Source: Paraspadella gotoi
Taxonomy: Eukaryota > Animalia > Chaetognatha
Assembly: GCA_051294375.1 (NCBI GenBank)
Contig: CM119267.1
Location: 367,523-431,522, forward strand
Length of the DNA: 64,000 nt
Reading direction: 5' to 3'
Each line of letters begins with the position of its first letter. Within the stretch, counting starts at the first letter, position 1. Of the stretch, positions 20,681-58,846 are shown one piece after another. Below the pieces are notes generated by a model. The model was not told where the DNA came from and ran no database searches. It saw only the letters and a program-made list of their open reading frames with translations. The translations under genes were made by a program, and so were the position numbers.

Positions 20681-20940
20681 GTGGATAAGGCTCTAAGTAT
20701 GCTGAAGATGACTATACGCAACTTTTTTAACCCTTCTAGAAGCCATGGAACGGTTCCTGGGTTTGGAACCAGGCTTGAGGGTTTTCCAGTCCCCCAAGGC
20801 GGGTTACGGGCGTCCTCACGCTTCCCGCAGGGTAGGAACCTGGTACCTAGAGGTCATGAGCTGATGGCTTTACCCAATGAGCCACCGGGTCACGACCGAA
20901 GGTGTCATGCTTATAGGCGGTGTGAAGTTATGCGATGCCC
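20681..20940 (-). mobile_element. Family A tRNA-derived SINE-like element with embedded type-P5 twister-like ribozyme (20750-20828)
   Basis: Minus strand: GGTGGCTCATTGG A-box head, then GCGG-GAA-GCGT-GAGGA-CGCCCG-TAA-CCC-GC-P3-CCTGG-TTCCAAAC-CCAGG-AA-CCGT; ends TTATCCAC; four homologous copies in the window. Confidence 0.75.
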
Positions 20941-23910
20941 GACTACACCTGCTTTTTTCACTTTTTCTTTCCTTTTACTTCTTTCCTCCTTTTTTCACTT
21001 TTTCTTTCCTTCTTTCCTTTTTCTTTCCTTTTTCTTCTTTCCTCCTTTTTTCACTTTTTATTTTCTTCTTTCCTTTTTCTTCTTTCCTCCTTTTTTCACT
21101 TTTTATTTTCTTCTTTCCTTTTTCTTTCCTTTTTCTTCTTTCCTCCTTTTTTCACTACTACGTGGGACGGCGGTGATTTCACGTTCAGCCTCTGAAAAAA
21201 AATCGCGGAGAGGGAATCATTACTGAAATGTGAGAAGGTGGGAGAAAGAGACAGAGAGAGAGAGAGTGGGAGAGACGAGTGGCGAGAAGCAGAGAGAGAC
21301 GTTGAGAGAAAGAGTGGAGAGAGAAGGNNNNNNNNNNNNNNNNNNNNNNNNNNNNNNNNNNNNNNNNNNNNNNNNNNNNNNNNNNNNNNNNNNNNNNNNN
21401 NNNNNNNNNNNNNNNNNNNNNNNNNNNNNNNNNNNGGAGAGAGAGAGGGAGAAAGGGAGAGAGAAAGAGTGTTAGAGAGAGAGAGAGGGAGACGGATGAA
21501 AGAGGATAAAACCCATTGGAGGAGGAAGAAGAGGAGAGAGACTAAACTAGAGGGCGCGCCTGAGAATTTTAAATTATCCCGCGAAAATTTGAATTTCAAT
21601 TCTCGACGTCGAGAAAAAAAGTGTGGGAAGCAAAAGGAAAGAAGGAGGAAGAGGAGGAAGAGGAGGNNNNNNNNNNNNNNNNNNNNNNNNNNNNNNNNNN
21701 NNNNNNNNNNNNNNNNNNNNNNNNNNNNNNNNNNNNNNNNNNNNNNNNNNNNNNNNNNNNNNNNNNNNNNNNNNNNNNNNNNNNNNNNNNNNNNNNNNNN
21801 NNNNNNNNNNNNNNNNNNNNNNNNNNNNNNNNNNNNNNNNNNNNNNNNNNNNNAGGAGGAAGAAGAGGAGGAGGAGGAAGAGGAGGAGAAAGAGGAGGAT
21901 GGAGAGGATGAGGAGGAAGAGAAGGAAGAAGATGAGGAAGTTAATATCGAAGGCGATGAGTAAAACTATTAAGCAAGAAGATTTCAAAGGCGGAAAAGGA
22001 TTTTTTCCCACCAAAACTGATATCGACATAAATGAGTTTACGTCTTTTTTTGAACTCATCTCTGACCCATTTGACCTATGACGTTTGACCTCTGATTCAC
22101 TGACCTTTGACAATTTAACTTTCTGACATCTGATTCATTGACCACTGACGTTTGTCCTTATTATACAATATTTTTTTATTTAATCGAAAAGATAAGTGAG
22201 TCTGAAAATAATAAGAAATCTGAGGAAGGAAGGGAAAGGTCGATGTTTCGTGGCCGGATTAGATAGCAGACAAGCCCTGCCAAATTATGGAAGAAACGTG
22301 AGAGAATAATAAACTGACATTTTGAGAGCGAGGCTTTCTTAATCTAGTTGTTGTTGTTGTTGGTGGTGTTGGTGTTGTTGTTGTTGTTGTTGTTGTTTTC
22401 AATCTTTTGGCTTTTTACGCTCTCCTTTTCTATTTCTCTTCTTTCTCTCAAGCTCTCTCTCTCTCTCTCTCTCNNNNNNNNNNNNNNNNNNNNNNNNNNN
22501 NNNNNNNNNNNNNNNNNNNNNNNNNNNNNNNNNNNNNNNNNNNNNNNNNNNNNNNNNNNNNNNNNNNNNNNNNNNNNNNNNNNNNNNNNNNNNNNNNNNN
22601 NNNNNNNNNNNNNNNNNNNNNNNNNNNNNNNNNNNNNNNNNNNNNNNNNNNNNNNNNNNNNNNNNNNNNNNNNNNNNNNNNNNNNNNNNNNNNNNNNNNN
22701 NNNNNNNNNNNNNNNNNNNNNNNNNNNNNNNNNNNNNNNNNNNNNNNNNNNNNNNNNNNNNNNNNNNNNNNNNNNNNNNNNNNNNNNNNNNNNNNNNNNN
22801 NNNNNNNNNNNNNNNNNNNNNNNNNNNNNNNNNNNNNNNNNNNNNNNNNNNNNNNNNNNNNNNNNNNNNNNNNNNNNNNNNTCTCTCTTTCAATTTCTTT
22901 CTATAATTGACGAACTACATATCAGAACTAGTAAGTAGCAACTCCAATTATCAGAAAAATCAAAATATGTATGAAAGATTTTGTGACCTCGCGTCCGGTC
23001 ATTTTTCCCTGGTCATTTAGTTGACCTTTTCAGTCCAGTCTTTTCTCCTTGCTCCATGTTAAAGTCAGTTCAACCTCCGACCGACGAATCGAAAGAGCGA
23101 CCCTCGAGGAATAGAAAATAATAAACATTTCCTACAATGTATTTTATATGACCGTTTATATACAAATATTGAGATAAGGAGAAGAGGAAGAGGAGGAGGA
23201 GGAGGAGGAGAAGAAGAAGGAGGAAGAGGAAGAGGAGGAGGAGGAAAAACGAAGTACTTAATGTCTCATATGAATCGCTAATGACAGAAAATTCAGGTTT
23301 TTTTTCAATTCTTTACCTGAAAAAAAAATAAGTTTTTTGAGGGAAAAACCAAAAGAAAAAAGTTTTACTTGTGAAAACCCAATCACTCCATGGGAATTTA
23401 TTAACAGACGACCCGACGGACTCGATGACGATGACGACGACAACAGACCGACCGGGAAGACGACGACGGACGACGAAGGTCAACTTTTGAAATCAGGAAG
23501 AAAAAAGAATTCTCATCGGCTGGGATAAAAGGGAAGAGAGAGAGAGTGTTGAGAGAGAGACGATGAGATGGAGAGAGAGATGAGAGAGGAGAGGGGGGGT
23601 GGTTCTGCTTCATTTATTTTTTCATTTTCTCTTTTCTCTCTCTCACCAATTTTAACGATAAACATCTTTTCCTTTCCATTAAACTAATCATAACTAATTG
23701 CTATTTAATAAACACTATTAAAAACCAAGAAACATTACAATTTAAAAAGTTAATTTATAAATAAAACTTTTATAAAAGCATAAAATTGCAATTTAAGATT
23801 ATTGCTTTCACCAGGAAATTCCTTTCCCCGACTCAAACCATAAACCTGAACGCGTGAGAAAGAAAAAATATGGAAACCACGAAAAAAGGGAGGAACGATT
23901 ATGTGCCTTA

Positions 23911-23958
<48 letters not shown>

Positions 23959-24030
23959 CAAACATTTTTAACGTCGAAAAACCAAGAACTTAGCAAGCAG
24001 GTAGTAAACTAGAATACAAGAATTTCATAT

Positions 24031-24353
24031 GTGGATATGGACAAATCGATAAGTGGCCTGAAAATGACGTCAAATAAATATTAAATTTAACCTGTGCATG
24101 CGAAGTCCTGACAACAGACTTCAGTAACTTATCTAGCCCCTTCTAACGTCCATGGAACGGGTCCTTGGCTTGGAACCAGGTTTGGGAGGTGGCAATGCCC
24201 CCGAGGAGGTCGACGGCCGTCCTCACGCTTCTCATAGAGCAAGTAACGGGTTCGAAGCGAAAGCGGTACCATGTGGTCACAAGCTGATGACTGTACTCAA
24301 GGTCACGACTGAGGGAATGATAATTATTTTCGTGATTAAACTCAGCTATGCCC
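24031..24353 (-). mobile_element. Family A SINE-like element, degenerate twister (24157-24235)
   Basis: Minus strand GCGT-GAGGA-CGGCCG-TCG-ACC...CCTGG-TTCCAAGC-CAAGG; the UAA cleavage motif is mutated. Confidence 0.7.
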
Positions 24354-25366
24354 GCTATATGGAAAGCAAATAATTCAGCCTTGTCACACGACCGTGACAA
24401 TATTGTGTGGCAGCGAAGACAATCGTTTTAAAAACCGTCGGGGTACTAACGTGACACTTGCTTGACATCCTCCCGCCGTTTACCAAGAATCTGCCAACCA
24501 GAGATTCCAGAAAAAAAAACAATATTTTGACATTTTCTTTCTCGTTTGAGTTTTCTTGCTGCAACTGGCATCGACTCGCGTCAATGGGACAACTTTGTCT
24601 TTTTTGTCAAAAAGGAGGTACTATTTTTCGAAAGAGCCCAATTTCTGTTTCTAATCCCTGAATTAATTTTAATCAATGTTATCTAACTTTATAAAATATT
24701 TAACCCAATCCCTAACCCAAATCCCTAATCTTATCCCATTACCCTAATCACTGACTCTAATCCTTAAACTAACCCCTATCCTTAATCCATAAGGTTATGG
24801 ATTAATTACTTAGTAATTTTGAATTTAAACGGACATTGGGGTGGCTTTTGAAAAATATGATTAAAAAGGCCAAAAATTGGATGATGGACTTGAGCAGATG
24901 ACAATGGAAGATTGCAACAAAAAAAAACAATATTTCCAGATTTAATATGTCTTTTTTAATTTCGAAACAAATTTCAGCTGTCAATATCAGATATTTTTTG
25001 ATCGTTAAAATTCGTTTAAATGTTTTCCTTTTTTTGATATTTTAATCTTCGTGTTTTTTTTTAAAGCTGAACATCACAGATGGAATCAGAATTCGAGAAT
25101 GGAATCAGATCCGCGACTTCGGTAAAATCCCCCGGAAGCCGGATTGGACCTCCAAGAGAACCGACCAATCACTAGATGGGCTTCATGCCATCGGGAAAAC
25201 CAGCCCGTGTCGATCATCTACTTGATTAAATGTGAACTTTTTAATGGAGAAAAATGGGGATTTCATTTTAGGGAGCGGAGAATGAGAAGGTCAGGAGGAA
25301 GTAAAAAATAATATGTATGTATGTATGAATACTTACAATTGAAACATTCCTTGAAATATTATCCCT

Positions 25367-25538
25367 CTTCATTGATAGGGAAGCCAGGTAATAAACGAGA
25401 CTGTGATAGAGTCTTTGATTGAAAGCTTGCAGGGACCTGCTACTTCATTATCTTGTAAGAGTGATGGAGGCCTTAAGCCACCAAAGCCTGTCCAAAGTCA
25501 GGGGCGAGATAGCTTATTTATTAAATGAATGGATAATT
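25367..25538 (+). mobile_element. Family C dispersed repeat carrying a twister ribozyme
   Basis: Homologous (reverse complement) to 50056-50235, 54192-54375, 58697-58846 and 40981-41070. Confidence 0.75.
25449..25511 (+). ncRNA. Type-P5 twister ribozyme, apparently intact, with palindromic P1
   Basis: P5 TATCTTG/CGAGATA; P2 GAGT/GCC; L1 GATGG; P1 AGGCCT; TAA at 25474-76; T2 AC/GT; C-AAA-G; P4 CCTG/CAGG; L4 TCCAAAGT; T1 CCA/TGG. Confidence 0.8.
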
Positions 25539-25737
25539 TTTATATTGGAGAAGAGAGAAAGGTGAACTGTGAACTCGTGAACGCGGCCCCGAATCCCTGG
25601 GAGGAGGATGAAGAGGAGGTGAATGAGAAGGAGGGGGTAATAGACCCGCGTCTGTCTATCACCTTTTATACTGGGTTGTACCAATTTCATAAAAGACGAA
25701 GACGATTTTAAATGTTTTAAATAAGTTGTGATAACTT

Positions 25738-26010
25738 TTTAACCGAATCTGCTTGAAGCAAATTCCTGCTTTGTCGGTCTGTCGGTCTGTCGGTCCCACC
25801 ATAAAATCTTGTAATTTACTTAAATCATATCAGAACATCGAATTCTGATAAATTATGCATAAAAAAATAGATGTCCGTCCGTCCGTACGTCCGTCCGTAC
25901 GTCGTCCCACTCTTAGCTTTGTACGTAAATTACTCATGAGTGGATCGGGCGATTGACTTGAAATTTTGTGTGTATGTAAAGAAGTGTATGATTTAGCTGG
26001 AAATCAAAAA
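25738..26010 (+). mobile_element. DINE-1/HINE-like element, family H2
   Basis: ACCGAATCTGCTTGAAGCAAATTC 5' hairpin, (GTCGGTCT)n and (GTCC)n, then ACTCATGAGTGGATC...AAATTTTGTGTGT shared with the other copies. Confidence 0.6.
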
Positions 26011-26438: not shown

Positions 26439-26945
26439 CCCTCTAACTCTTTCTCTCTCTCCCTCTCTCCCCCTTCTCTCAGTAAAGGTGATTCAGCGAG
26501 CGGCAATGCAATCAGTGGCCAGAGATCGCTGAGGGGATTGTTTCCTGATGGTCGAGGGTCGAAATCCTGATGGAAGAGAAGGTGAGTGACTCAGTCAGGC
26601 GATTGCTGTTTGCGGAGGCAAAGAAAATGTGCAATTTACGCCTCATCGTTTCGTTTAATTCTAAATCTATTTTTGTATGTGTACATTATTGATTTTTAAT
26701 TCTTTAAGCTAAGAAATCTCTTTTTGACTTTCCAAGCGACTATTATACGGGTAAGTTATTTTTGTCTTTCTTAAGTAGTAATTTTAATTTGTGCATTTGT
26801 TTCTTACTTGTATAACATATATTTACGTGGGTGGCTGACAATGTGATGGGAAACAGAAACAATTTTATATTTTCTTTCTTTTTTTTTTCTTAGTTTGATA
26901 TTTTCTATTTTTCTTGTTTTCTATCTTTACTTCCTTTTTATTATT

Positions 26946-27192
26946 TCGCCGCGAGTACTCGCGGAGCAACTCTTTAAGTCACTTTTCGGTCGGTCGGTCG
27001 GTATGTCTGTCCGTGATCACAAAGTAAATGCGGCATATTTCTTGTAATGTCGGGTCGTTTGAGTTGAAACTTTGCAGAGAAAAGTTCAACCATAAGACGT
27101 TGGTTATAACTTATACATAAATTTCCTAGTCATGTAGTCACGTGATCACAGGGAAATACATGTGAAAAGAAAATCACTTCGGCGCAACACAT
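26946..27192 (+). mobile_element. DINE-1/HINE-like element, family H1
   Basis: CGCCGCGAGTACTCGCGGAGCAAC 5' hairpin, GTCG/GTCY repeat, 3' CGGCGCAAC subterminal IR. Confidence 0.65.
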
Positions 27193-29065: not shown

Positions 29066-29137
29066 CTCTCTCTCTCTAACTCGTTCTCTCCCTCTCTCAC
29101 TTTCTCTCTCACCTCCTCTTTTACTTCCTTTCATACT

Positions 29138-29382
29138 GCACACTGCATAAGTTCACCCCGCCTCTAAGCAATGACACCTCCAGCCGTGACCACTGACCAG
29201 TATTACCATCAGCTCAAGACCATTCGGTACCGACATCGAGCCCCAATGGTATCTTCCCTGCAGGAAGCGAGAGAACGACCGTAAACCACCTTGAGGGCGT
29301 GGAAAACCCTCCAATCTGGATCCAAGATCCGTTCCGTGGCGACTAGAGGGGGTTAAAGAAGTTACGGATAGCTCTCTTCAGC
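29138..29382 (+). mobile_element. Family A SINE-like element, degenerate twister (29260-29332)
   Basis: GCGA-GAGAA-CGACCG-TAA-ACC-AC-CTTGAGGG..ACCCTC..CTGG-ATCCAAG; shares the leader and the CCATCAGCTCA head with the other A copies. Confidence 0.7.
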
Positions 29383-30360: not shown

Positions 30361-30620
30361 TTTTTCGCCGGATCGGTTTACAGCAGATTCGAGCTTTATA
30401 ATTTACTTTGTCGGTCCGTCGGTACCCAACCCAAAATATTTTCAATAAGATCTTGTCATAATATCAAATTATGATAAATAATGCCCAAAAAAGTGATGTC
30501 TGTCCGACCGTCCGTACGTCTCCTATTAGCATTAAACGCCAATTACTCGTGATTGGATAGATGGATTGGAAATTACTTGATTAAATAATTATGATTAGCT
30601 GCTTACCGCTAATGAACGTG
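30361..30620 (+). mobile_element. DINE-1/HINE-like element, family H2
   Basis: GCCGGATC..GCAGATTC 5' hairpin, GTCY repeats, 3' AGCTGCTTACCGCTAATG matching 40005-40025 (reverse complement). Confidence 0.6.
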
Positions 30621-34676: not shown

Positions 34677-34828
34677 GTTGCGCCGCGAGTACTCGCAAAT
34701 ACTCATAAATACACGGGCAAAAAAAGTTTTTTAGTTATATCATGTCATGTCATATCATGTGATCAAAGGGAAATACACGTGAAAATAAAGTCACTGCGGC
34801 GCAACACATTGGAATCACCGTTCTTGTT
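34677..34828 (+). mobile_element. DINE-1/HINE-like element, family H1, internally deleted
   Basis: GTTGCGCCGC...GCGGCGCAAC perfect subterminal IR pair. Confidence 0.65.
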
Positions 34829-34991: not shown

Positions 34992-35603
34992 TAAGGCGTA
35001 GTAAAATTTCTAAATTTAACTTTAATTAAAATTCTAAAAGTGAAGAACGAACAATATTATATTAATAAACATTTATATAATAAAAAAATTTATAATAAAT
35101 TTTACAATTTTCACAGTAGGCCATATTTATACTAGTACTAAACCAATAAATGTTAAAATTTCAAAACAGTTTTTTCTAAGATTTTTTTGCAGATTTGGAT
35201 TTGTCACAAAAAGTTGACATAAAGAAATATAATTCTTTTTGAAAAATTCCTTCATTAAATGGGTCAAAAATTAAAAAAAAGTTATATTTTAAGCTGAAAA
35301 TTAATTTTTTAAGTATTAAATATAGTTTTTTTAATTTTTAACCCACTTAATGAAAGAATTTTAAAAAATGATTTATATTTTCTTTTATCAACTTTTGACG
35401 AGGAATTCAAATCTGCAATCAAAATTAAGAAAAGCCTATTTTGAAATTTTTCGATTTTATAAGGATAGTACTATATATAAATACAGCTTACTGCAAAAAT
35501 TAAAAAACATAGAATTAATTTTTTTTACAAATTAATGTTCACTGATAGTATGTTGTTCATAATTGACTTTTAGAATTTTTGTATGAACTTTCACTACGCC
35601 TTA
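34992..35603. mobile_element. Palindromic (fold-back) MITE, ~300-bp imperfect arms
   Basis: TAAGGCGTAGT...ACTACGCCTTA termini; internal mirror matches (GCAGATTT/AAATCTGC, AAAAGTTGA/TCAACTTTT, TTCATTAA/TTAATGAA); a half copy at ~55060-55330. Confidence 0.75.
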
Positions 35604-45520: not shown

Positions 45521-46336
45521 GTTTTTTGTTTGTTTTGTTTTTTTCTTTTTTCTTTCTTATTTTATGTTTAAGTTGTTTATGTTTATGTTAAAGTTCTTAC
45601 GAGTTTACGTTCACGTTACTATTTATTTGTTTTCACTACTTTATTTACTTTTTAAATTATAAATTTAAGAGAAAAAAAAAGTTTTGTTTTATTTCGAGGC
45701 GAAACACAAAAATCGAAGGCTAAAAAAAATGAGACAAACTTGGTAAAATTCGTGAATCGCGAATGTGAGAGGATAAAAGATCAAAGGACTGGATTCAAGT
45801 TGACGTCGAAGGGGAAAAAAAAGAAAGGAAAAGAAAGGAAATTACAGTAAAGAGAAGTGAAGCCCAATCGATTGAGATAAACAATCAGCGGCGAAAGCAA
45901 AGAATTTTGATGCCCCGTTTGGACGACCAGTCTACCTCATTTGTTTTGTTGTCTCTTTTTCTTTTCAGAAAAAAAAAAAAGATTTGTTTAGGTTTTCGTC
46001 GTCGTCGTCGTCGTCGTCGTTTGAATCCCGAACTTTGTCGTTATCGTCTCTTCGTTATCGTCCATTCGTTATTTCATATATTTAATTAATATAATTTTCA
46101 TTAATCGCAAACTTTATTAAAAACTTAAGTTGGATCAACTTTAATGCGCGATTTGCTATAGTTATTTCCTAAAATGAATCCTCAGCCTTCTGACTTGGAG
46201 CCAATGAGTTTTTTATCAGCCAATCAGCGAAGACTATTGAGAAATCCTCTTCCTCTTCCTCCTACGCTTTGATTTCTATGGCCTTGTCCTCCTCCCAAAG
46301 ATTTAAAAGCAACCAAATTTTGTGTTTTTTTTTAAT

Positions 46337-46468
46337 TTTTAAATCTTTATGTGCAATAATCGTTTTATGTTAAATTGTTATTGTTTTATATTTTATAGTT
46401 GTGTAGTTATATAGTTATATAGTTCTGTAATGACTACAACAACAACTTTCTGGTAATAACAAGACATA

Positions 46469-46517
<49 letters not shown>

Positions 46518-47955
46518 ATCCCCCTTCACCCTATGTGAGTCCATCCTAAACCGTCAAACCGTCAAACTGACTCAAAGCTGCTGCGAGTCTCGCCGACATT
46601 TATCCCGTCCGCCTCCTCCTCCGCCTCCTCTTTCTCTTCTTCTTCTTCCCGCAGCCCAGCCTTTGCTCGCAGCAGAGCCGCGCCCCGATCTTGACACAGC
46701 TGTTAAGCAGCGGCATAAAATCCGGAGCGGGATTAAATCCGCTGCAGCACAAACCGCGCGTCGACGCAGCTGGAAATCCTCTTCAGTTCAGTACTTGAGC
46801 CTTTTCCCTCACCCCCCCCCACCCGCGTGGGCCTCCGACCCGGCTTCCCAGGATCGGGTCGAAGCCGGTCCGGCACACGAAGCCGGCCTGACACGCCGGG
46901 TACTTTTTTTGGCCTCTGCGAAACCACGAGGCGAGAAGGGAGAACGAAAGGGGAAAGAATTAAAATTTTGGACTTTTGGCTCTCTTATTCGAGAGAGCCC
47001 CATTTCTGTTTTACTTTAAAATTTAATTTTTATTTTAATATTTAATATAAACATATTTTTAAACCTATAAACTGATCCCAAACCCTAATTCCTAATCGAG
47101 GATTAGTAATCTTAATCCTAAGCCTAATCCTAAATCTTAATCTTAAACCCTTATTCCTAGTTTTTAACCCTAAACGGGTCGTTCTGGGAAAATAGGACGT
47201 TGCGTATCTTATTCGTGAGGCAAGTTTAAGTTCAATTTTTTTTTTCTGAAATAATTGCGGTTGCATGAAGATCTTATGTTAACAATAAACGTGAACAAAA
47301 AAGGTAAATAAAAAAGAGATCAGTGGACAAAGTCAAGCAACTCCGTCCACATGAGACGGCAGCTCAATCACGGGATTCCAACTATAAGTGAAACAAAACA
47401 GATAGCCTCGACTCCAAACCCCTTTTTCCCCTCGATCGCGAAACAGGGAAACTTGAGATCAAGATATCAATTCCTAAGCCGTCTCTCCCTACGGCAACGC
47501 TCGCATTGGCCACCACGAACTCCGAGGGGCAGAACGATTAGTGGTGCTGCACAGTGCACAGTGACCTATTGACCAATTCCACTCACTTGACTCACCTGGT
47601 TTAGTAGTGGGTAGAGACCAAGCGTGTCCTTGAGTACACGACACACGACCCATAACTAACCCAACACCCAAACCTAATTTATAGAATAAATTAAAATTAT
47701 AACATGACTTAATTCGTGGCGATATAATAGAAATGTTTAATGATTGATTATTCATTACTGGTGTTTATGTATAAAAGCAAAGTTCAGAACGTTTATGTCA
47801 GCGAAAGTCGGGCTTACAAGGAGAAAGATAAAGAATGGAGACTGGGTGAGAGAGAGAGAGAGAGAGAGAGAGTGAGACAGAGACAGATAAGAGGAGAATG
47901 CAATCAACCATGAATTGTTACAGTGAGAAGAATTCCCGGCCTTTCTGCAATGGGG

Positions 47956-47990
<35 letters not shown>

Positions 47991-49091
47991 CATTGAGAGT
48001 ACTTGTGAAAATTAAAGGAGTCCCTTTCACATGTTCTCTGTTTAGAGACGATCTTCGGTTGTGAGTTTTGGTGAAAAAGACTTAAGTAGATTAAGGATGA
48101 ATTCAAGCGAGATACAAATTTTGTGAGTCGCCTTCCGAACTCAGTTTATTAGGAATTGTATCACCGTAACGCTCGATATTTGCTGCTGACAAGTATCACA
48201 AATTTAACAAATTTCAGTCGTTATTTTTTTTTTTTTTTTTGAAGTCTGAAGAAAAAACAAAACAAAGAGAAAATAAAAAATCAATGTAAACAAACAAAAA
48301 ACAAAACTGCCGGTAAAAATATTATTATTTAATCGGTGTCGGTCAAAAAGTCTCTTCGTATGAAAAAAGTTTTCTGTTGTTGTGATTATTAATCTCAGTA
48401 TTGATCTCATTTTAATCTTATTTTTAATCTCAATTTTAATCTCACTTTTAATCTCATTTAAATTTTGATATTTCGTGAAGAGGACAGCAAATCGCAAGTT
48501 ATTCTTTAATCTTTAAACTTTCTATTTCTCAGCGTTATTATATAAATGTAAACCGATTTAGTTAACTATTAATAATTATTTATAAAAGTAAATATAAATT
48601 CAGAAAAAAATTCTTTAGAAAAATAAATATTCAGGTGGATTAACTTAGAAATAGTTTCGGAGCAGAAACTCGAGAAAGATTTTTTTTTCAGGAGAATAAG
48701 AAAAGAAATTTTTTATCATTAATCATTAATTATATTCAAGCGGCGAAAATTCTTAAATCTCTGCCAACTTGATATCACAAGAAAATAATAAAACCAAACG
48801 AACAAATCCATCAGCGCCAAAAAATTAATCACCTTCTGGCCTTGTTATCGTCATAGATTTATTATTATATTTGCCTAATATACCGCAGTACTACGCGAGG
48901 CTAAGACGATTATTTTTAAACACGATTCTTCACATTTCATTCGTTTTCCACGATCACGACTGACCAACATTCGAAGAACAAAACTGTGAGTCGTCGTCGT
49001 CGTCGTCGAAAACCAAACGTGAAAAAGCAAAGGAGTTTTGAAAACCAGGCAGAGGCCTTTCTCTTTCACCGTGATAATCGTAAAAGGTAAT

Positions 49092-49126
<35 letters not shown>

Positions 49127-50650
49127 ATCTCTCTCCTCTGTAAAAGGGAAAGGTTCAGGTGAGCGAAAGCGAAAGAAAAATGGCTTCTGACGTTAAAAGG
49201 GAAGAAAGGGAAGACAACGACAACAACAACAACAACTAGAAAAACAATAGACTCGACCGTCACGCAGTGCTTTACACCTTGACGTCATAACATAGTGGCA
49301 AAAGAAAGGACGGACCAATCACCCGACACCAACACATGAAACAACCAACATAGACAAAATCAATAGGTACTCGAACCTGTCACTGACTCGCCAAGACTGC
49401 TAGAGTTTCAAAAAAATAATTAGTTTTAAAGAAAGAGACAGTGCAGCGTAGAGCGAGGAGAGTAGAGAGAGAGACAAGACGAGACGAGAGCACGAGAGAC
49501 GAGACGAGAGGAGAGNNNNNNNNNNNNNNNNNNNNNNNNNGAGAGAGAGAGAGAGAGAGCGTCAAACGACCCACGAAAAAGTAAATAAACATTTTCTTGA
49601 TTAAAATTCGAAAATTAAGTTGGTAAGAAAATCGCGACTAAAAAAAATAGCGAATTAATTAAACAAAAAAACTATCTCTCTCTCTCTCTCTCTCTTACCA
49701 TGACCAATTGTTATTTTCTCACGCCACATCTTTCACAATCGTCCTCCTTCAATCAAGAAACTGGTGAAGTCACCACAACAACGACAACAACAACGACGAC
49801 AACGCTTAACGCGTGAATGGATTCACGAGTTGTGAAGATGAAATGGATTCACAGCGTGACCTTGAGATGCGATTGGTCACTTCGTCACTCACCCTAAATA
49901 CGAAAGGAATTCGGTCACGTGACTGTCTACGAATCCCTTATCCTGGAGTCTCGACTCTCCGCCGCAGCCGCAGGAAAGCAGCGGCAGAAATGCTGCAGCC
50001 ATTTCCTGCCAACTCTCGTAAACATTAGAAACGAAATTGATACAATACAATATAAAATTATCCATTCAGTTAATATATTAGCTATCAGGCCCCTGACTTT
50101 GGACAGGCTTTCTTGGTTTAAGACCTCCATCACAGTTACATAGCAGTTCCTTGCAAACTTCCAATCAAGACTCTCTCTCTGTCTCGTTTATTTACTCCCA
50201 AAGTACCTGGTTTCCCTATCAATGAAGTAGGATGTTTATTTTTTTTAATAACCCGTTTATATAGTTGTGAAATATATTTCGTCTCATGTAGCGCTTTCCC
50301 TTTTTTGTTCAATATTTTTACGGCCATTTTTACCCTTAATATCCGAGTGAATTTGAGTTAATTTCAGTCGTACTTATTATAAAGTACGAGAGTTTCCGAG
50401 GGATCTCTATAAAGAATTAAAACGTTTTAACCTTTACTATACGACTTTTCCTTGGCGACTCACGTTGAGACGATTCGTTACGGGCGAAACATCAGACGCT
50501 CGTCCGCGCTCGCATGAGAATAAGCGACAATTCTCACTGGATAAACGATTCCTCGCTTCGCGATACGACGTCTACGAAACAATTTAATCCTATGCTTAAC
50601 AACTTCTCGTAATTAACGAACAAACGAACGAACAAACGAACGAACGAACG
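46337..50650. repeat. ~4.3-kb tandem segmental duplication, copy 1
   Basis: Colinear with 50661-54830 from TTTTAAAT..CAATAATCGTTTTATG to the (AACG)n tract. Confidence 0.95.
50056..50235 (-). mobile_element. Family C repeat with twister-like core (50083-50140)
   Basis: Minus strand GATGG-AGGTCT-TAA-ACC..AAAG-CCTG-TCCAAAGT-CAGG; T2 and P5 are damaged. Confidence 0.7.
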
Positions 50651-50660
50651 AAGAGAGAGA

Positions 50661-53611
50661 TTTTAAATGCTTTATAATGTCAATAATCGTTTTATGTTAA
50701 AATTGGTTATTGTTTTATATTTATAGTTTTGTGTAGTTATATTAGTTATATTAGTCTGTAATTGACTACAAAACAACTTTCTGGTTAATAACAAGACATG
50801 ACTCTCTCTCTTTCATCTCTCTCTCTCTCTCTCTCTCATCCCCTTCACCCTATGTGAGTCCATCCTAAAACCGTCAAAACCGTCAACTGACTCAAAGCTG
50901 TGCGAGTTCTCGCCGACATTTATCCCGCGCCTCCTCCTCCGCCTCCTCTTTCTCTTCTCTTCTTCCGCAGCCCAGCCTTTGCTCGCAGCAGAGCCGCGCC
51001 CCGATCTTGACACAGCTGTTAAGCAGCGGCATAAAATCCGGAGCGGGGATTAAATCCGCTGCAGCACAAACCGCGCGTCGACGCAGCTGGAAATCCTCTT
51101 CAGTTCAGTACTTGAGCCTTTTCCCTCACCCCCCCCCACCCGCGTGGGCCTCCGACCGGCTTCCCAGGATCGGGTCGAAGCCGGTCCGGCACAGCGGAAG
51201 CCGGCGTGACACGCCGGGTATACTTTTTTTGGCTCTGCGAAAACCACGAGGCGAGAAGGGAGAACGAAAGGGGAAAGAATTAAAAATTTTGGACTTTTGG
51301 CTCTCTTATTCGAGAGAGCCCATTTCTGTTTTTACTTTAAAATTTAATTTTTTTTAATATTTAATATAAACATATTTTTAAACCTATAAACTGATCCCAA
51401 ACCTTAATTCCTAATCGAGGATTATTAACTTAATCCTAAGCCTAATCCTAAAACTTAATCTTAAACCCTTATTCCTAGTTTTTAACCCTAAACGGGTCGT
51501 TCTGGAAAATAGGACGTTGCGTATTATTCGTGAAGGCAAGTTTAAGGTTCAATTTTTTTTTTCTGAAATAAATTGCGGTATGCTTGAAGAATCTTATGTT
51601 AAATAAACGGTGAACAAAAAAAGGTAAATAAAAAAGAATGCAAGTGGACACAAGTCAAGCAACTCCGTCAATGAGACGCGCAAGCTCAATCATTGGGAAT
51701 TTCAACTATAGTAAACAAAACAGAATAGCCTCGACTCCAAACCCCTTTTTCCCCTCGATCGGAATCAGGGAAACTTGAGATCAAGATATCAATTCCTTAG
51801 CCGTCTCTCCCTACGGCAACGCTCGGCATTGGCCACCACGAACTCCGAGGGGCAGAACGATTAGTGGTGCTGCACAGTGCACAGTGACCTAATTGACCAA
51901 TTCCACTCACTTGACTCACCCTGGTTTAGTAGTGGGTAGAGACCAAGCGGTGTCCTTGAGTACACGACACACGACCCATAACTAACCATCACCCAAACCT
52001 AATTATAGTAATAAAATTAAGATTATACATTGACTTAAATTCGTGGGCGATATTAATAAAATGTTTAATGATTGATTATTCATTACTGGTGTTTATGTAT
52101 AAAGCAAGTTCAGAACGTTTATGTCAGCGAAAGTCGGCTTACAAGGGAGAAGATAAAGAATGGAGACTGGGTGAAGAGAGAGAGAGAGAGAGAGAGGAGA
52201 GAGTGAGACAGAGACAGATAAGAGGAGAATGCAATCACCATGAATTGTTACAGTGAGAAGAATTCCCGGCCTTTCTGCAATGGGGAAAGAAAGAAAGAAA
52301 GAAAGAAGAGAGAGAGAGACATTGAGAGTACTTGTGAAAATTAAAGGAGTCCCTTTCCACATGTTCTCTGTTTAGAGACGATCTTCGGTTTGTGAGTTTT
52401 GGTGAAAAAGACTTAAGTAGATTAAGGATGAATTCAAGCGAGATACAAATTTTGTGAGTCGCCTTCCGAACTCAGTTTATTAGGAATTGTATCACCGTAA
52501 CGCTCGATAATTTGCTGCTGACAAGTATCACAATTTACAAAATTTCAGTCGTTATTTTTTTTTTTTTTTTTGAAGTCTGAAAGAAAAAAGAAAAAAGAGA
52601 AAATAAAAAATCAATGTAAACCAAACAAAAAACAAAACTGCGGTAAAAATATTATTATTAATTCGGTGTCGTCAAAAAGTCTCTTCGTATGAAAAAAGTT
52701 TTCTGTTGTTGTGATTATTAATCTCAGTATTGATCTCATTTTAATCTTATTTTTTAATCTCAATTTTAATCTCACTTTTAAATCTTCAATTTAAATTTGA
52801 TATTTCGTGAAGAGGACAGCAAATGCAAGTTATTCTTTAATCTTTAAACTTTCTATTTCTCAGCGTTTATTATTATAAGTGTAAACCGATTTAGTAACTA
52901 TTAATAATTATTTATAAAGTAAATATAAATCAGAAAAAAATTCTTTAGAAAAATAAATATTCAGGTGGAGTTAACTTGAGAAATAGTTTTCGGAGCAGAA
53001 ACTCGAGAAAGATTTTTTTTTTCAGGAGAATAAGAAAAGAAATTTTTTTAATCATTAATGCATTAATTATAATTCAAGCGGCGAAAATTTTTAATGCTCT
53101 GCCAAACTTGATATCACAAGAAAATAATAACCAAACGAACAAATCCATCAGCGCCAAAAAATTAATCACTTCTGGCCTGTTATCGGTCATACATTTTTAT
53201 TATATTTGCCTAATATACGCGCAGTACTACGCGAGGCTAAGGACGATTATTTTTAACAACGATTCTTACATTTCATTTTTTCACGATCACGAAACATTCA
53301 GAACAAAACTGTGAGTCGTCGTCGTCGTCGGGAAAACCAAACGTGAAAAAGCAAAGGAGTTTTGAAAACCAGGCAGAGGCCTTTCTCTTCAACCGTGATA
53401 ATCGTAAAAGGTAATTTTCTCTCTCTCTCTCTCCTCTTCTCTCTCTCTCTCTCGGTAAAAGGGAAAGGTTCAGGTGAGCGAAACGAAAAGAAAATGGCTT
53501 CTGACGTTAAAAGGGAAGAAAGGGAAGACAACGACAACAACAACAACAACTAGAAAAACAATAGACTCGACCGTCACGACTCGCAACTGATTGCAAAAAA
53601 ATATTGTTTTA

Positions 53612-53684
<73 letters not shown>

Positions 53685-54830
53685 AGAGGAGCGTCAAACG
53701 ACGCCACGAAAATAAAATAAACATTTTCTTGATTAAAATTCGAAAATTAGTTGGTAAAGAAAAATCGCGACTAAAAAAAATAGCGAATTAATTAAACAAA
53801 AAAACTATCTCTCTCTCCTCTCGTCTCTCTCTCTTCTCTCATCCATGACCAATTGTTATTTTCTCACGCCACATCTTTCACAATCGTCCTCCTTCAAATC
53901 AAGAAACTGGTGAAGTCACCACAACAACACAACAACGACGAACAACGCTTAACGCGTGAATGGATTCACGAGTTGTGAAGAATGAAATGGATTCACGAGC
54001 GTGACCTTGAGATGCGCATTGGTCACTTCGTCACTCACCCTAAATACGAAAGGAATTCGTCACGTGACTGTCTACGAATCCCTTATCCTGGAGTCTCGAC
54101 TCTCCGCCGCAGCGCAGGAAAGCAGCGGCAGAAATGCTGCATTTCCTGCCAACTTCTCGTAAACATAGAAACGAAATTGATACAATACAATAAAATTATC
54201 CATTCAGTTAATATATTAGCTATCAGGCCCCTGACTTTGGACAGGCTTTCTTGTTTAAGACCTCCATCACAGTTCACATAGCAGTTCCTTGCCAAACTTT
54301 CCAATCAAGACTCTCTCTCTCGTCTCGTTTATTTACTCCCAAAGTACCTGGTTTCCCTATCAATGAAGTAGGATGTTTATTTTTTTTTAATAACCCGTTT
54401 ATATAGTTGTAAATATATTTCGCCTCATGTAGCGCTTTCCCTTTTTTGTTCAATATTTTTAACGGCCATTTTTACCCTTAATATCCGAGTGAATTTGAGT
54501 TAATTTCAGTCGTACTTATTATAAAGTACGAGAGTTTCGAGGATCTCTATAAAGAATTAAAACGTTTTAACCTTTAGTAAAGGCTTTACTATACGATTTT
54601 CCTTGGCGACTCACGTTGAGACGATTCGTTACGGGCGAAACATCAGACGCTCGTCCGCGCTCGCATGAGAATAAGCGACAATTCTCACTGGATAAACGAT
54701 TCCTCGCTTGCGATACGACGTCTACGAAACAATTTAATCCTATGCTTAACACTTCTCGTANNNNNNNNNNNNNNNNNNNNNNNNNATTAACGAACAAACG
54801 AACGAACAAACGAACGAACGAACGAACGAA
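50661..54830. repeat. ~4.2-kb tandem segmental duplication, copy 2
   Basis: Near-identical to 46337-50650; differences are mostly 1-nt indels. Confidence 0.95.
54192..54375 (-). mobile_element. Family C repeat (duplicate of the 50056 copy)
   Basis: Same sequence, lying within duplication copy 2. Confidence 0.7.
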
Positions 54831-55059: not shown

Positions 55060-55330
55060 GAAGGAAAGAATTGAAAGGATTTTTTTTTAAATTAGTTATG
55101 TTTTCTTTTATCTACTTTTGACGAGGAATTAAAATCTGTTAAAATTAATTAAAAGTTCATTTTGAAATTTTAGGATTTCTTAAGGATAGTACTATATATA
55201 AATTTAGCCTAATGTGAAAATTAAAAAAATATAAAATTATTTTTTTTTTTATAAATTAATGTTTACTGGTTGTACGTTGTTCATAATTAACAATTAGAAT
55301 TTTCATAAGTGACTATCACTACGCTCTTAT
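55060..55330. mobile_element. Half copy (right arm) of the 34992-35603 MITE
   Basis: CTTTTGACGAGGAATT, TAAGGATAGTACTATATATAAAT and TCACTACGC match 35390-35600. Confidence 0.7.
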
Positions 55331-55475
55331 TCATAAGTATGAACACTTTAGCTAACTTTTTTTTTTAAATCTTAATTCGTCTCGATTCACTACTAAATGC
55401 GCCGCCTTTAAATTTTTTCTTTTCACGAAAATTATAAATGAAAAGATTTTCTTTAATTCCAGGCAGACGTCTCCA

Positions 55476-56230: not shown

Positions 56231-56261
<31 letters not shown>

Positions 56262-56378
56262 AAATAACAACAAAAGCAAAAAATGTCGTAGGTTAACAAC
56301 GTTGACATTATGAAACAATCTAGTGACTAATTCAATCATACTTGTTTTTATTTAACTTATTTATTTTAACCTTTTAAG

Positions 56379-56666: not shown

Positions 56667-57010
56667 AGTTGCGCCGCGAAAACTCGTGGAGCAACTCTAT
56701 TAGTCACTTTTTGGTCGGTCTGTATGTCTGTCCGTCAGTCTGTCTCACTTAAAAATGCTCATAATTCGCCTATATTTGGTTGCTCTTATGTTAAGACAGA
56801 AATAAAACCTCAAATCTAAATGACTGCTAGCGCCGCCTTCAGGAAATCCTAAAACTAAAAAGAATAAAAGATGAAATTCCGATTCAGAGAGTGTCATAAA
56901 TGCACGGGCTAAGAAAGTCATTGTAGTCATGTCGTGTCATTTCATGTTGTCATGTGATCACACGTGAAGATAAAGTCACTGCGGCGCAAGACCTTGAATG
57001 AACCGATTTT
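56667..57010 (+). mobile_element. DINE-1/HINE-like element, family H1, in intron 4
   Basis: GTTGCGCCGCG..GGAGCAAC 5' hairpin, GTCY repeat, 3' GCGGCGCAA. Confidence 0.7.
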
Positions 57011-57048
57011 TATTACAAGATTTTCACTTTGGTATTACAATCAAACAG

Positions 57049-57182
57049 GTATTTGTACGCGATCGCTCGTGGCGCCAAAATCATTTGGGATTTTGACGAT
57101 GACAATTTGTTAAAGTTCTGGATGGAAGGGGCAGCGCCCGACCCTAATTTGGACCTACGAACTTACCTCCGCCAACCAGAGA
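57049..57182 (+). CDS. STELLO-like glycosyltransferase exon 5 (DxD motif)
   Basis: (G)YLYAIARGAKIIWDFDDDN; GTGAGT donor. Confidence 0.9.
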
Positions 57183-57442
57183 GTGAGTGGCACTTTTGTC
57201 AGAAAGCGACCAATTTCTGTTACTAAATCTTGAACTTGATTTTTGAATAATTAATTTTTACTTAATTATTAAGCTTAATCCTTAACCCTTAATTTTTAAT
57301 TAATACTTAATTCTAATCGCTAATCCTTAACTTTATCTTTGAACCCCATATCTTAATCTTTAAATGTATTCTTTAATAAAATACTGAACAAAATCATTCA
57401 CCTAACCTTAAACATTTATTTAACTTTTATCGTTAATTTTAT

Positions 57443-57683
57443 GTGGATAAGGCACAAACTGGGCTGAAGATTATTATCCGTATCTTCTGTGCCTCTTGTA
57501 GCAGCCATAAAACGGATCCTGGGCTTGGAACCAGGCTTGAAGGTTTTCCAAGCCCTCAAAATGATTTATGTAAAAGATCCTGTCCTCACGCTTTCCGCAG
57601 GTTAGGTAGCGGGTTGGGATTGAACCCGGTACTTAGCGTCATGAGCTGATGGCTTTATTCAATGAGCCACCGGATCACGACTG
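57443..57683 (-). mobile_element. Family A SINE-like element with clearest tRNA head; twister-like region 57512-57598
   Basis: Minus strand GGTGGCTCATTG (A box), CTCATGA (CAT anticodon-like), GGGTTCAATCCC (B box); GCGT-GAGGA...CCTGG-TTCCAAGC-CCAGG-AT-CCGT. Confidence 0.8.
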
Positions 57684-57893
57684 TTTATAAGCAGGGTATG
57701 GTGGACTAAAATCCACCAACCGTTCATCAGCGGCCATTGGTGCCGGAAGCAAGTCATTCGCCTCCCAACCCAAAGGTCCGGGGTTCTAGCCCGGTGGCCG
57801 ACTAGCAGTTAAGAGGGACAGGGCGCTTAACCCGCCTGTAACACGGTGTTACAGCCTGATCCGAAGCTCAGGGACTGTTTATATTGAACGGTT
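57684..57893 (+). mobile_element. Family B element: tRNA-Gly-like head plus twister-like ribozyme
   Basis: CGGCCA/TGGCCG acceptor-like stem (57731-57800), TCGCCTCCCA anticodon arm, CCGGG-GTTCTAG-CCCGG T-arm, with the twister immediately 3'. Single copy in the window. Confidence 0.65.
57804..57879 (+). ncRNA. Type-P5 twister ribozyme with palindromic P1 (one T1 mismatch)
   Basis: P5 AGCAGT/ACTGTT; P2 GAGG/CCC; L1 GACAG; P1 GGCGCT; TAA 57828-30; T2 GC/GC; P3 CTGTAAC/GTTACAG; P4 CCTGA/TCAGG; L4 TCCGAAGC. Confidence 0.72.
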
Positions 57894-57999
57894 CTGTCAC
57901 TAACACATAACAATTATCACTGTCTTTTCAAGGGTAAACTTATGCAATACCCAACTACACTTATTCTTTTTATCTAAAATTAAAAACTTGATTCTAAAT

Positions 58000-58183
58000 T
58001 TGGAGTTGGAGCTGCCGGAGCTGGCATATTTGACTGGAGCTGGAGCTGGAGCTGAATTTATTTTCTTACTGGAGCTGGTGCTGAGATTATATCTTGGCCG
58101 GAGCTGGAGCTGAAAAATTTTTTTGGTCGGAGCTGGAGTTTGAGCTGGAGCTGGAGAAAAAATGGCCAGCTCCACAACCCTGG
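58000..58183. repeat. (GGAGCT)n-rich MITE-like fragment
   Basis: Clusters of GGAGCT hexamers ending GCTCCACAACCCTGG. Confidence 0.55.
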
Positions 58184-58324
58184 ATTAAAGATTAAGTTAT
58201 AACTTTAATATAAGTTTTAAAATATGTTTAGGTTTAATTTTAAAGTTAAAATTAAACTCTGAGATAAACAGAATAGAGAGCCGCTTCTTTTGCCCAAGGT
58301 AAGTAAGTACTTGTTTTATCACAG

Positions 58325-58618
58325 AGCTTGGAATCGTAGAACCCGTTCTAAACGAGTCGACTCCAGCATTCAATCCTTACCCTCTCTTGGGCGCGCCTGA
58401 CTTACCTTCCTGGCCACGAGGGTTTCCTCTCAACCTCGTTCTCAAAAATTCCACCTGGGATCTCAAACTGAAACCGACGGAAAATGAAGTCAAATTCGGC
58501 GTCTTGCAATCTCTTGCAGATGTGCAGCCAGACGTTGATGCAGTCTATAGACTCACGAAAACAACGCCTTTTCTATTTCAACGACCAATTGCAAGGGCAG
58601 CGGCGCCTCCTTTTCAAG
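58325..58618 (+). CDS. STELLO-like glycosyltransferase exon 6
   Basis: FNPYPLLG..SWPRGFPL..GVLQSLADVQPDVDAVYRL. Confidence 0.9.
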
Positions 58619-58696
58619 GTTGGTGTCTTCATTTATTGTTGCAAACTTGGCAGACGGAATAATATTGTTACTTTATTATTTAATTTATGAAATTGG

Positions 58697-58846
58697 TATA
58701 ACCATTCATTCAATAAATAAGCTATATTACCCCTGACTCTGGACAGGCTACCATCACTTTTACAAGATAATGACGAAGTAGGTCTCTTTAACCTTTCAAT
58801 CAAGACTCTCTCAGTCTTTTATATTCACTTCCAGAGTACCTGGCTT
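58697..58846 (-). mobile_element. Family C repeat lacking the P1-UAA-P2 segment, in intron 6
   Basis: Minus strand TATCTTG-TAA-AAGT-GATGG-TAG-CCTG-TCCAGAGT-CAGG. Confidence 0.65.

What the first reader, a model, noticed from the sequence alone, without database searches (positions are those of the whole stretch)
20681..58846. At least three unrelated dispersed-repeat families share one type-P5 twister ribozyme design with a 6-nt palindromic P1
Seen: families A (4 copies), B (1) and C (5) have unrelated flanks but the same order: P5 - (T/G)AA - GNGN - GA+3nt - 6-nt palindrome - TAA - NCC - T2 - P3 - P4[TNNNAAGY] - P5'. Pairings covary between families. T1 is TCC/GGA (A), CCG/CAG (B, one mismatch), CCA/TGG (C). 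T2 is GC/GC (A, B) versus AC/GT (C). P4 is CCTGG/CCAGG, CCTGA/TCAGG, CCTG/CAGG. P1 is CGGCCG, GGCGCT, AGGCCT. All have a 3-bp P2 with a bulge at the same position. Established: twister has a U^AA cleavage site, a catalytic G opening the GA-NNN strand, an L4 loop like UCCCAAGC and two pseudoknots; minimal hammerheads use palindromic stems to fold as dimers. Inference: this is a radiation of non-autonomous SINE/retrozyme-like elements whose twister P1 forms between two copies, so cleavage may be gated by multimeric transcripts. I cannot confirm whether this variant has been described.
Basis: partly seen in the sequence, partly recalled or inferred. Interest (0 to 1): 0.93.

Follow-up and report, generated by a model that had tools for sequence, protein, structure and literature searches.

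The report
Dimer-forming twister ribozymes in mobile repeats
Three unrelated, very abundant short jumping repeats of an animal genome each carry a twister-type self-cutting RNA fold whose first helix is replaced by a six-letter palindrome, so two copies likely pair up to cut, a trick so far described for hammerhead ribozymes; cutting itself is untested.

Summary
Families A, B and C are high-copy repeats of about 230-270 bp with unrelated flanks. They share a type-P5 twister core with a 3-bp bulged P2 and only 6 nt where P1 should be. Most window copies are decayed, but the majority letters across thousands of genomic copies keep T1, T2, P2, P4, P5 and the palindromes CGGCCG, GGCGCU and AGGCCU. 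A database search that left the hexamer free found one further intact ribozyme, in a 974-nt circular or tandem unit, and it carries a fourth palindrome, CAAUUG. So the hexamer likely pairs between two copies, as a 'double twister'. Strict gating is doubtful, because P1 is dispensable in tested twisters. New here: A and B carry a tRNA-like promoter upstream of the ribozyme, TG/TA...CA ends and 4-bp target duplications (one exact, two 3 of 4). That fits solo LTRs of Helenus-like or retrozyme-like mini LTR elements better than SINEs. C lacks the tRNA part and may be Penelope-type. No two-LTR copy, RNA or cleavage was shown. Ten literature searches found no description of this variant.

The parts
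20680..20947 (-). Family A copy A20, full length (268 bp), ends TGT...ACA, flanks CCTC/CCTG; twister hexamer decayed to CGCCCG
20830..20895 (-). tRNA-like promoter region of A20 (A box with 1 mismatch, shortened B-box region)
   Evidence: not called by ARAGORN or Rfam
20746..20832 (-). Twister core of A20, 18/20 descriptor points; predicted cut U20806^A20805
24094..24312 (-). Family A copy A24, 5'-truncated; hexamer CGGCCG intact (24214-24219), UAA lost
29130..29382 (+). Family A copy A29, decayed (hexamer CGACCG, L4 shortened)
57442..57959 (-). Family A copy A57, interrupted by B57; ends TGT...ACA, flanks TTTA/CTTA; perfect B box at 57616-57626; insertion over P1/UAA
57697..57930 (+). Family B element (234 bp), ends TA...CA, nested in A57
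   Evidence: sharp loose ends at 57696/7 and 57930/1 in 4 of 4 runs
57693..57696 (+). Left target-site duplication AGGG (right copy 57931-57934)
   Evidence: chance of an exact 4-mer match 0.9%
57732..57800 (+). tRNA-like region of B (closing stem, B box at 57782-57792 with 1 mismatch; no convincing A box)
57804..57879 (+). Twister of B: general-base G57817, hexamer GGCGCT 57822-57827, predicted cut U57828^A57829
   Evidence: 19/20; majority letters
25334..25689 (+). Family C copy C25, with a ~125-bp insert at about 25547-25672; no tRNA-like part found
25449..25511 (+). Intact twister of C25: general-base G25463, hexamer AGGCCT 25468-25473, predicted cut U25474^A25475
   Evidence: 20/20; Rfam Twister-P5 21.5 bits
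34095..34161 (-). Family C 3' fragment (L4 to the end)
50048..50233 (-). Family C copy C50 (hexamer AGGTCT; T2 and P5 damaged)
54192..54374 (-). Family C copy C54, duplicate of C50 inside a 4.3-kb tandem duplication
58680..58847 (-). Family C copy C58, with a deletion across P1-UAA-P2-T2

Best explanation
Families A, B and C are three high-copy non-coding repeat families that each keep a type-P5 twister fold with a six-letter palindrome in place of the P1 hairpin, and two ribozyme copies likely share that palindrome as one helix (a 'double twister') when they cut. Shown: the fold, its conservation in the family majority, four different palindromes at the same place, and for A and B a tRNA-like stretch upstream, TG/TA...CA ends and 4-bp target duplications. 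Inferred: A and B are solo LTRs of miniature LTR elements carried by Gypsy-type enzymes. RNA polymerase III would start at the tRNA-like part of the first LTR and read through a short interior into the second, putting two ribozymes on one RNA. The 5' half of each would pair with the 3' half of the other (P5, P2, T1), the two palindromes would form the shared 6-bp P1, both U^A sites would be cut, and the released unit would be circularised and reverse-transcribed as in plant LTR retrozymes. Lone copies read inside host transcripts would cut more slowly, because the open P1 loop and a competing local hairpin disfavour the active fold. I expect a rate enhancement rather than an absolute switch. 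C uses the same ribozyme, but its carrier is open (LTR or Penelope-type).
For: Fold: C25 20/20 and B57 19/20 against shuffles. Family majority, C: 9,792 contigs laid in run X1; no alternative letter reaches 10% at 25461-25476 or 25478-25503 in 4 of 4 runs; the majority letters at 25477 and 25506 improve P2 and P5; minor variants fall on the P2 bulge (25460) and turn a G.U of P5 into A-U (25504). Majority, B: the letters at 57820 and 57878 (98%) complete T1 and P5; minor variants give A-U to G.U in P5 (57804) or lie in the P3 loop (57844). A: loose-end consensus of other copies reads GA-GGA-CGGCCG-UAA-(A/G)CC-GC in 4 of 4 runs. Blind test: of 506 database loci matching the descriptor with the hexamer free, L036 has T1 3/3, P4 4/4, P2 3/3 and a 6-bp P5, and its hexamer is CAATTG; only 4 of 506 hexamers are Watson-Crick palindromes. 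L036 is a 974-nt unit with an exact 123-nt terminal repeat. All three P1 pairs covary over the four types. Self-duplex energies are -10.7, -9.1, -8.3 and -3.0 kcal/mol, against +4.1 to +5.6 for a 1-bp hairpin in the window hexamers. The strand-swapped dimer beats two open monomers by 14.3, 11.7 and 6.8 kcal/mol. Precedent: hammerheads with a 1-bp stem plus palindromic tetraloop cut better as dimers (PMC7229834; PMC6765202). LTR traits: compared with Helenus (PMC10886601) and plant retrozymes (PMC4918200).
Against: P1 is dispensable in tested twisters, so monomers may cut well. No two-LTR copy, PBS, PPT or head-to-tail joint was seen in the window or among the joints shown (15 shown in each call; 96 and 81 more were not shown). 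Only 1 of 3 measurable target duplications in A and B is exact, and C25 shows none that is clear. B starts with TA, and its duplication can also be read as 6 bp with a TG start. ARAGORN and Rfam call no tRNA. C has no promoter-like part. One other locus, L330, also passes T1+P4+P2 with a non-palindromic hexamer; it is a short tandem repeat with a 3-bp P5, judged chance. In B, 12% of depth in X1 (3-4% in the other runs) has a letter at 57863 that breaks T1. The modelled dimer is 2.9-15.0 kcal/mol less stable than two misfolded monomers; pseudoknots are not modelled. All Rfam scores are below gathering. A and C hexamers can cross-pair (-8.7 kcal/mol), so the palindromes are not family-specific locks.
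Confidence: 0.5

Rival explanations
1. Same double twister, but the repeats are non-autonomous riders (or tails) of Penelope-like elements of the Naiad type: twister versions of animal non-LTR retrozymes that are copied from tandem or circular RNA.
For: Naiads lack canonical hammerheads and prefer (TA)n targets (PMC8557442). C is followed by TA in 3 window copies and in loose-end consensuses, has a 5'-truncated copy, and has about 5-fold more depth over its 3' part. L036 is a circular or tandem unit. Unchecked notes from other genomes place palindromic P5 twisters in Naiad tails. Animal retrozymes are tied to PLEs (bioRxiv 10.64898/2026.07.22.740005).
Against: B has sharp ends on both sides, even depth and an exact 4-bp duplication; A has TGT...ACA ends in two copies. 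No partial tandem or inverted arm occurs in the window. No PLE coding sequence was identified next to any copy (ORFs of 90 aa or more; no dedicated PLE search was run). This reading is most plausible for C alone.
Confidence: 0.25
2. The ribozymes cut as monomers (natural mini-twisters). The palindrome is kept for another reason, such as a kissing signal that dimerises the RNA for packaging into Gypsy particles, like the retroviral dimer-initiation loop (recalled).
For: Twisters without P1 cut at almost wild-type rate, and P1 imperfections did not lower cleavage among 2,625 type-P1 candidates. A 6-nt linker can span the gap (inference). GC-rich hexamer palindromes in loops are known dimer signals of LTR elements (recalled).
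Against: The palindrome sits exactly at P1, at a fixed length, in four unrelated sequence contexts, including the AU-rich CAAUUG of L036, which is a weak kissing loop (-3.0 kcal/mol). The geometry matches the double hammerhead. The two roles are not exclusive.
Confidence: 0.15
3. Ordinary tRNA-derived SINEs carried by a LINE, each with a twister behind the head, like the schistosome SINE-like hammerhead elements (recalled).
For: tRNA-like part 5' of the ribozyme in A and B, a T4 run at the very end of B, lengths of 234-268 bp, very high copy number.
Against: 35-60 nt lie upstream of the tRNA-like part and are kept at a fixed end, which a Pol III transcript from a single unit would not contain. 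There is no poly-A or simple-repeat tail. Duplications are 4 bp. Cutting in mid-element would destroy a single-unit template.
Confidence: 0.08
4. Chance resemblance in an AT- and microsatellite-rich window.
For: All Rfam hits are below gathering, and 17/20 descriptor hits are common (15.9 per shuffle).
Against: 20/20 was never reached in 20 shuffles. Majority letters repair exactly the predicted pairs in C and B. An independent fourth example exists.
Confidence: 0.02

Closest known systems
Type-P5 twister ribozyme (Rfam RF02684, clan CL00120; review PMC5408937, passages)
   Same: Order of elements, GA-NNN strand, U^AA, L4 of the form U-NNN-AA-GY, pseudoknots T1 and T2, termini in P5.
   Different: P1 is a 6-nt palindrome with no loop, whereas the model has a hairpin of about 20 nt. 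P2 is one pair shorter with a bulge. T2 is AC/GU in C. Scores of 21-29 bits are under the 37.6 gathering score.
Dimeric minimal hammerheads of Penelope-like elements and amphibian retrozymes (PMC6765202 and PMC7229834, passages; Lunse et al. 2017 not held)
   Same: A short palindrome replaces the helix next to the cut site; two copies would share it; hosts are mobile elements.
   Different: Different ribozyme class. In hammerheads helix III matters for activity, whereas twister P1 is reported dispensable, so the need for a dimer is less obvious.
Helenus TRIMs / TRIMp3 (Kojima 2024, PMC10886601; main text parts 1-4 of 6, supplement parts 1, 5, 6, 7, 9 of 11, motif search of the whole file)
   Same: tRNA-like sequence inside a short LTR, TG (some TA)...CA ends, 4-bp duplications in animals, many solo LTRs.
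   Different: No twister is mentioned or seen in the LTR consensuses read. Most Helenus LTRs end soon after the tRNA part. A two-LTR copy with PBS and PPT was not shown here.
Plant LTR retrozymes (Cervera et al. 2016, PMC4918200, passages)
   Same: Ribozyme inside LTRs of about 300 bp, 4-bp duplications, solo LTRs, no coding capacity; release of a unit that circularises.
   Different: Type III hammerheads in plants; here a twister in an animal, with a tRNA-like promoter.
T-variant twisters of Schistosoma Perere-3 (PMC8501958, abstract and outline only)
   Same: Twister ribozymes in an animal retroelement.
   Different: They sit at the 5' end of an autonomous non-LTR element, and the target duplication forms part of P1; here the ribozyme is internal, permuted at P5 and in non-coding elements.

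Membership tests
Twister ribozyme, type P5 | Pseudoknots T1 (3 bp) and T2 (2 bp) | tested here: met
   C25, L036 and the majority letters of A and B pair fully, with different pairs between families
Twister ribozyme, type P5 | Conserved L1 and L4 nucleotides (GA strand, U^AA, U...AA) | tested here: met
   no alternative letter of 10% or more in C
Twister ribozyme, type P5 | Stems P2 and P4; chain ends in P5 | tested here: met
   P4 4-5 bp, P5 5-9 bp, P2 3 bp with a bulge (one pair shorter than the Rfam model)
Twister ribozyme, type P5 | Intramolecular P1 hairpin | tested here: not met
   only 6 nt; a 1-bp hairpin costs +4.1 to +5.6 kcal/mol; P1 can form only between copies
Twister ribozyme, type P5 | Rfam gathering score (37.6 bits) | tested here: not met
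   best 29.4 bits; L036 24.2
Twister ribozyme, type P5 | Site-specific self-cleavage | not testable with these tools
   only assembled contigs of runs were available; no RNA ends
Helenus (TRIMp3) | tRNA-like sequence with A and B boxes inside the LTR | tested here: inconclusive
   A: A box 1 mismatch (A20), B box perfect (A57); B: B box 1 mismatch, A box unclear; C: none; no ARAGORN or Rfam tRNA call
Helenus (TRIMp3) | TG...CA termini | tested here: met
   A: TGT...ACA in 2 of 2 full-length copies; B: TA...CA, as in a few published Helenus LTRs
Helenus (TRIMp3) | 4-bp target duplication (animal families) | tested here: inconclusive
   B57 4/4, A20 3/4, A57 3/4, C25 no clear match; chance 0.9% and 7.2%
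Helenus (TRIMp3) | Two LTRs around an interior with PBS and PPT | not testable with these tools
   no genome held; none in the window or among the joints shown
LTR retrozyme | Self-cleaving ribozyme in each LTR, of type III hammerhead class | tested here: not met
   ribozyme is twister-like; no hammerhead hit in the window
LTR retrozyme | Circular RNA monomer in vivo | not testable with these tools
   no run on record as RNA; L036 has a circular or tandem signature but comes from a metagenome contig
tRNA-derived SINE | 5' end at the tRNA head; LINE-like or simple-repeat tail; long variable duplication | tested here: not met
   35-60 nt fixed leader before the tRNA-like part, no tail, 4-bp duplication
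Animal non-LTR retrozyme (PLE-dependent) | Head-to-tail tandem units with a type I hammerhead | tested here: not met
   all 10 window copies are single and carry no hammerhead; tandems elsewhere in the genome are not excluded

The most novel reading that the evidence does not exclude
A widespread, so far undescribed class of obligate-dimer twister ribozymes. A lone copy is auto-inhibited and harmless inside host transcripts, and only two copies on one RNA (two LTRs, a tandem or a rolling-circle multimer) assemble a double twister on a shared palindromic P1. The module has been taken up by unrelated mobile elements: tRNA-promoter mini LTR elements (the first animal LTR retrozymes), Penelope-type elements and a ~1-kb circular unit.
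Probability: 0.3. Interest if true: 0.9.

Novelty: new variant of a known kind. Interest (0 to 1): 0.78.

Why it matters
Twister P1 is conserved in nature yet dispensable in the test tube. Here it is reduced to something that can form only between two copies, and four different palindromes show selection for that pairing, so the purpose of P1 becomes directly testable with RNAs of 65-90 nt. It would be a second ribozyme class converging on the double-hammerhead solution for counting copies. It would also give twisters a role in non-autonomous animal retroelements, and possibly extend LTR retrozymes from plants to animals. These ribozymes score below the Rfam threshold, so genome surveys miss them. 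A dimer-dependent twister could be useful as an engineered RNA switch.

Tried and rejected
No genome is held for the window, so no genome-wide alignment or R-scape test was possible. Rfam at gathering: 0 hits. ARAGORN: 0 tRNAs. No RNA holder was listed with certainty (X9 is only a guess), which says nothing on expression. A family-A-specific pattern found 0 hits in the metagenome collection. Descriptor scans of viral contigs (148 loci) and prokaryote genomes (240 loci, from partial scans) gave no convincing ribozyme; L116, L330, L430 and L469 pass loose filters and were rejected for weak P2 or P5, or for being a tandem repeat. The metagenome scan covered 20 of 64 parts (118 of about 410 matches). 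The pair count is discarded: the structure string was out of register with the MAFFT alignment. In one search the L036 hexamer was off by one (corrected), and its P4 was misplaced (corrected). Three rows of the per-copy table were mis-anchored (corrected). L036 has no phage match, no ORF over 129 aa and no second ribozyme. Repeat families D and E show no twister core. Sequence look-ups among earlier findings gave nothing. The host could not be placed beyond 'animal': its vasa-like helicase has no close relative. The Lunse 2017 paper is not held.

Full report
Setting. The window is AT-rich animal DNA full of microsatellites and gaps. It holds a vasa-like DEAD-box gene (minus strand, about 40050-45556) and a STELLO-family glycosyltransferase gene (plus strand, about 57000-60860). 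The helicase has no close relative in the protein collection, so the host is only 'an animal'.

The observation. Self-BLAST recovers four A copies and five C copies, and B is single. Outside one 10-nt match the families do not resemble each other. Rfam finds nothing at gathering level, but Twister-P5 hits three C copies at 21.5-29.4 bits. Its alignments show the two departures from the model: the P1 hairpin has shrunk to 6 nt with no loop, and each strand of P2 aligns with one gap. A 20-point descriptor (catalytic-strand letters, P2, P4, L4, T1, T2) scores C25 20/20 and B57 19/20. Twenty shuffles of the window gave no 20 and 0.15 hits of 19 per shuffle. The other eight copies are damaged; only C25 and B57 keep hexamer plus UAA, and C50 and C54 are one insertion duplicated with 4.3 kb of flank.

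The families as a whole. Laying contigs at 80% likeness on C25 placed 9,792 contigs in the best run, with summed depth of 2.6-3.8 million over the ribozyme against 83 on the flank. The tool warns that this is no copy number, but thousands of copies are implied. No alternative letter reaches 10% anywhere in 25461-25476 or 25478-25503 in any of the four runs. The two places where C25 differs from about 98% of the depth improve P2 and P5. The minor variants hit the P2 bulge and turn a G.U of P5 into A-U. For B (13,800 contigs laid on the A57+B57 stretch in X1), the majority letters complete T1 (CGG with CCG) and P5. Minor variants give A-U to G.U in P5 or lie in the P3 loop. One minor variant (12% in X1, 3-4% elsewhere) breaks T1, and 13 weaker rows were not shown. 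For A, the loose ends of other copies read GA-GGA-CGGCCG-UAA-(A/G)CC-GC in all four runs.

A blind test of the palindrome. I searched three collections with the descriptor, leaving the hexamer, T1 and P4 free: 506 loci, from complete or partial scans. Two pass T1 3/3, P4 4/4 and P2 3/3. L330 is a short tandem repeat with a 3-bp P5 and no palindrome, which I judge chance. L036 has a 6-bp P5, a Twister-P5 hit of 24.2 bits and the hexamer CAATTG. Watson-Crick palindromes occur in 4 of the 506 loci (16 with G.U). L036 is a 1,097-nt metagenome contig with an exact 123-nt terminal repeat, that is, a 974-nt circular or tandem unit with one ribozyme and no long ORF. Over the four types every P1 pair changes and stays paired: C-G, G.U, A-U, C-G; G-C or A-U; G-C, C-G or A-U.

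How it would work. Six nucleotides cannot make a stable hairpin (+4.1 to +5.6 kcal/mol), but they pair with a second copy at -10.7, -9.1, -8.3 and -3.0 kcal/mol. If the 5' half of one copy pairs with the 3' half of another, the two palindromes form one 6-bp helix with an active site at each end, the geometry of the double hammerhead. In nearest-neighbour terms this dimer beats two open monomers by 14.3 (C25), 11.7 (B57) and 6.8 (L036) kcal/mol. In all three, the best monomer fold is a wrong hairpin in which the T1/P1 strand pairs with the P2/T2 strand, and the dimer lies 4.3, 2.9 and 15.0 kcal/mol above two such misfolds. Pseudoknots are not modelled, so this only suggests auto-inhibition. Against strict gating: twisters lacking P1 cut at almost wild-type rate (PMC5408937, passages), and P1 defects did not lower cleavage in a survey of type-P1 twisters (PMC11662667, passages). 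For dimer action: amphibian hammerheads with one pair plus a palindromic tetraloop cut far better as dimers (PMC7229834, passages), and Penelope hammerheads likewise (PMC6765202, passages). My estimates: active ribozyme 0.8; intermolecular P1 0.75; strict requirement 0.3.

What the elements are. B has sharp ends at 57697 and 57930 in all four runs. It sits inside A57, which resumes at 57931, and is flanked by AGGG on both sides; a 6-bp reading with a TG start fits equally. A20 and A57 both run TGT...ACA, with 3-of-4 matching 4-bp flanks. Chance for an exact match is 0.9% and for 3 or more 7.2%. A and B have a tRNA-like stretch 5' of the ribozyme (boxes; not called by ARAGORN or Rfam), preceded by a fixed leader of 35-60 nt. 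A single-unit Pol III transcript would not contain that leader, which argues against an ordinary SINE. The picture fits solo LTRs of Helenus-type TRIMs (PMC10886601) and the layout of plant LTR retrozymes (PMC4918200). The defining two-LTR copy with PBS and PPT was not seen, so membership is not claimed. C has no tRNA-like part, no clear duplication, more depth at its 3' end and TA after its end, and could be Penelope-type. Naiad elements lack canonical hammerheads and prefer (TA)n (PMC8557442, passages), and unchecked notes from other genomes report palindromic P5 twisters in Naiad tails. I could not test that lead.

What is in print. Ten full-text searches and term searches in the papers read found no twister with a palindromic P1, no dimeric twister, and no twister in TRIM or LTR elements. 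'Twister' does not occur in the Helenus, Naiad or 2026 retrozyme texts. Known retroelement twisters are the T-variants at the 5' end of Perere-3 (PMC8501958, abstract) and truncated ones in RTE elements (PMC7761336, passage). One 606-nt circular RNA with a twister-P5 is mentioned without detail (bioRxiv 10.1101/2022.07.19.500677). The library lacks most subscription papers, and I did not see Roth et al. 2014 or its alignments, so earlier listing of such sequences is possible.

Verdict. A real, conserved twister variant built for pairing between copies, carried by at least three non-coding repeat families here and by one unrelated circular or tandem unit. It works like the dimeric hammerheads of retrozymes. 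It is a variant of the type-P5 twister that fails the intramolecular-P1 criterion. New variant of a known kind; interest 0.78.

Noticed in passing
PMC10886601 supplement DataS1: The published LTR consensuses Helenus-2_SyJa and Helenus-2_SyUm contain a hammerhead core downstream of the tRNA-like part; the paper's text uses 'ribozyme' only in a reference. tRNA-plus-ribozyme LTRs may therefore already sit unrecognised among Helenus families.
   Followed up: partly
L036:1-1097: 974-nt unit with an exact 123-nt terminal repeat, one palindromic-P1 twister, no long ORF and no phage match; candidate retrozyme-like or viroid-like circle.
   Followed up: partly
window 46337-50652 and 50661-54826: Tandem duplication of about 4.3 kb at 92-93% identity; may be a real duplication or two haplotypes assembled in series.
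   Followed up: no
window 40990-41070 (-): A sixth, strongly decayed C-like copy between coding segments of the vasa-like gene, in the gene's sense.
   Followed up: partly
window 57697-57930 (+): The near-intact B ribozyme lies between coding segments of the STELLO-like gene in the sense orientation, so it would be part of the pre-mRNA.
   Followed up: no
window 18886-19162, 26944-27192, 34703-34813, 56669-57010; and 19403-19685, 25735-26003, 30361-30567, 40101-40436: Two more dispersed repeat families (D, E) with GTCN-type internal repeats and no twister core.
   Followed up: partly
window 7746-8093 and about 9466-9798 (+): Fragments of a non-LTR retrotransposon (APE endonuclease Pfam hit; a possible RT piece without a hit).
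   Followed up: no
window 1296-1417; 35025-35612 and 55072-55335: A perfect ~120-nt hairpin, and a palindromic repeat family with two copies.
   Followed up: no
window 12894-14477: Several ORF fragments on both strands with no Pfam hit; unexplained.
   Followed up: no
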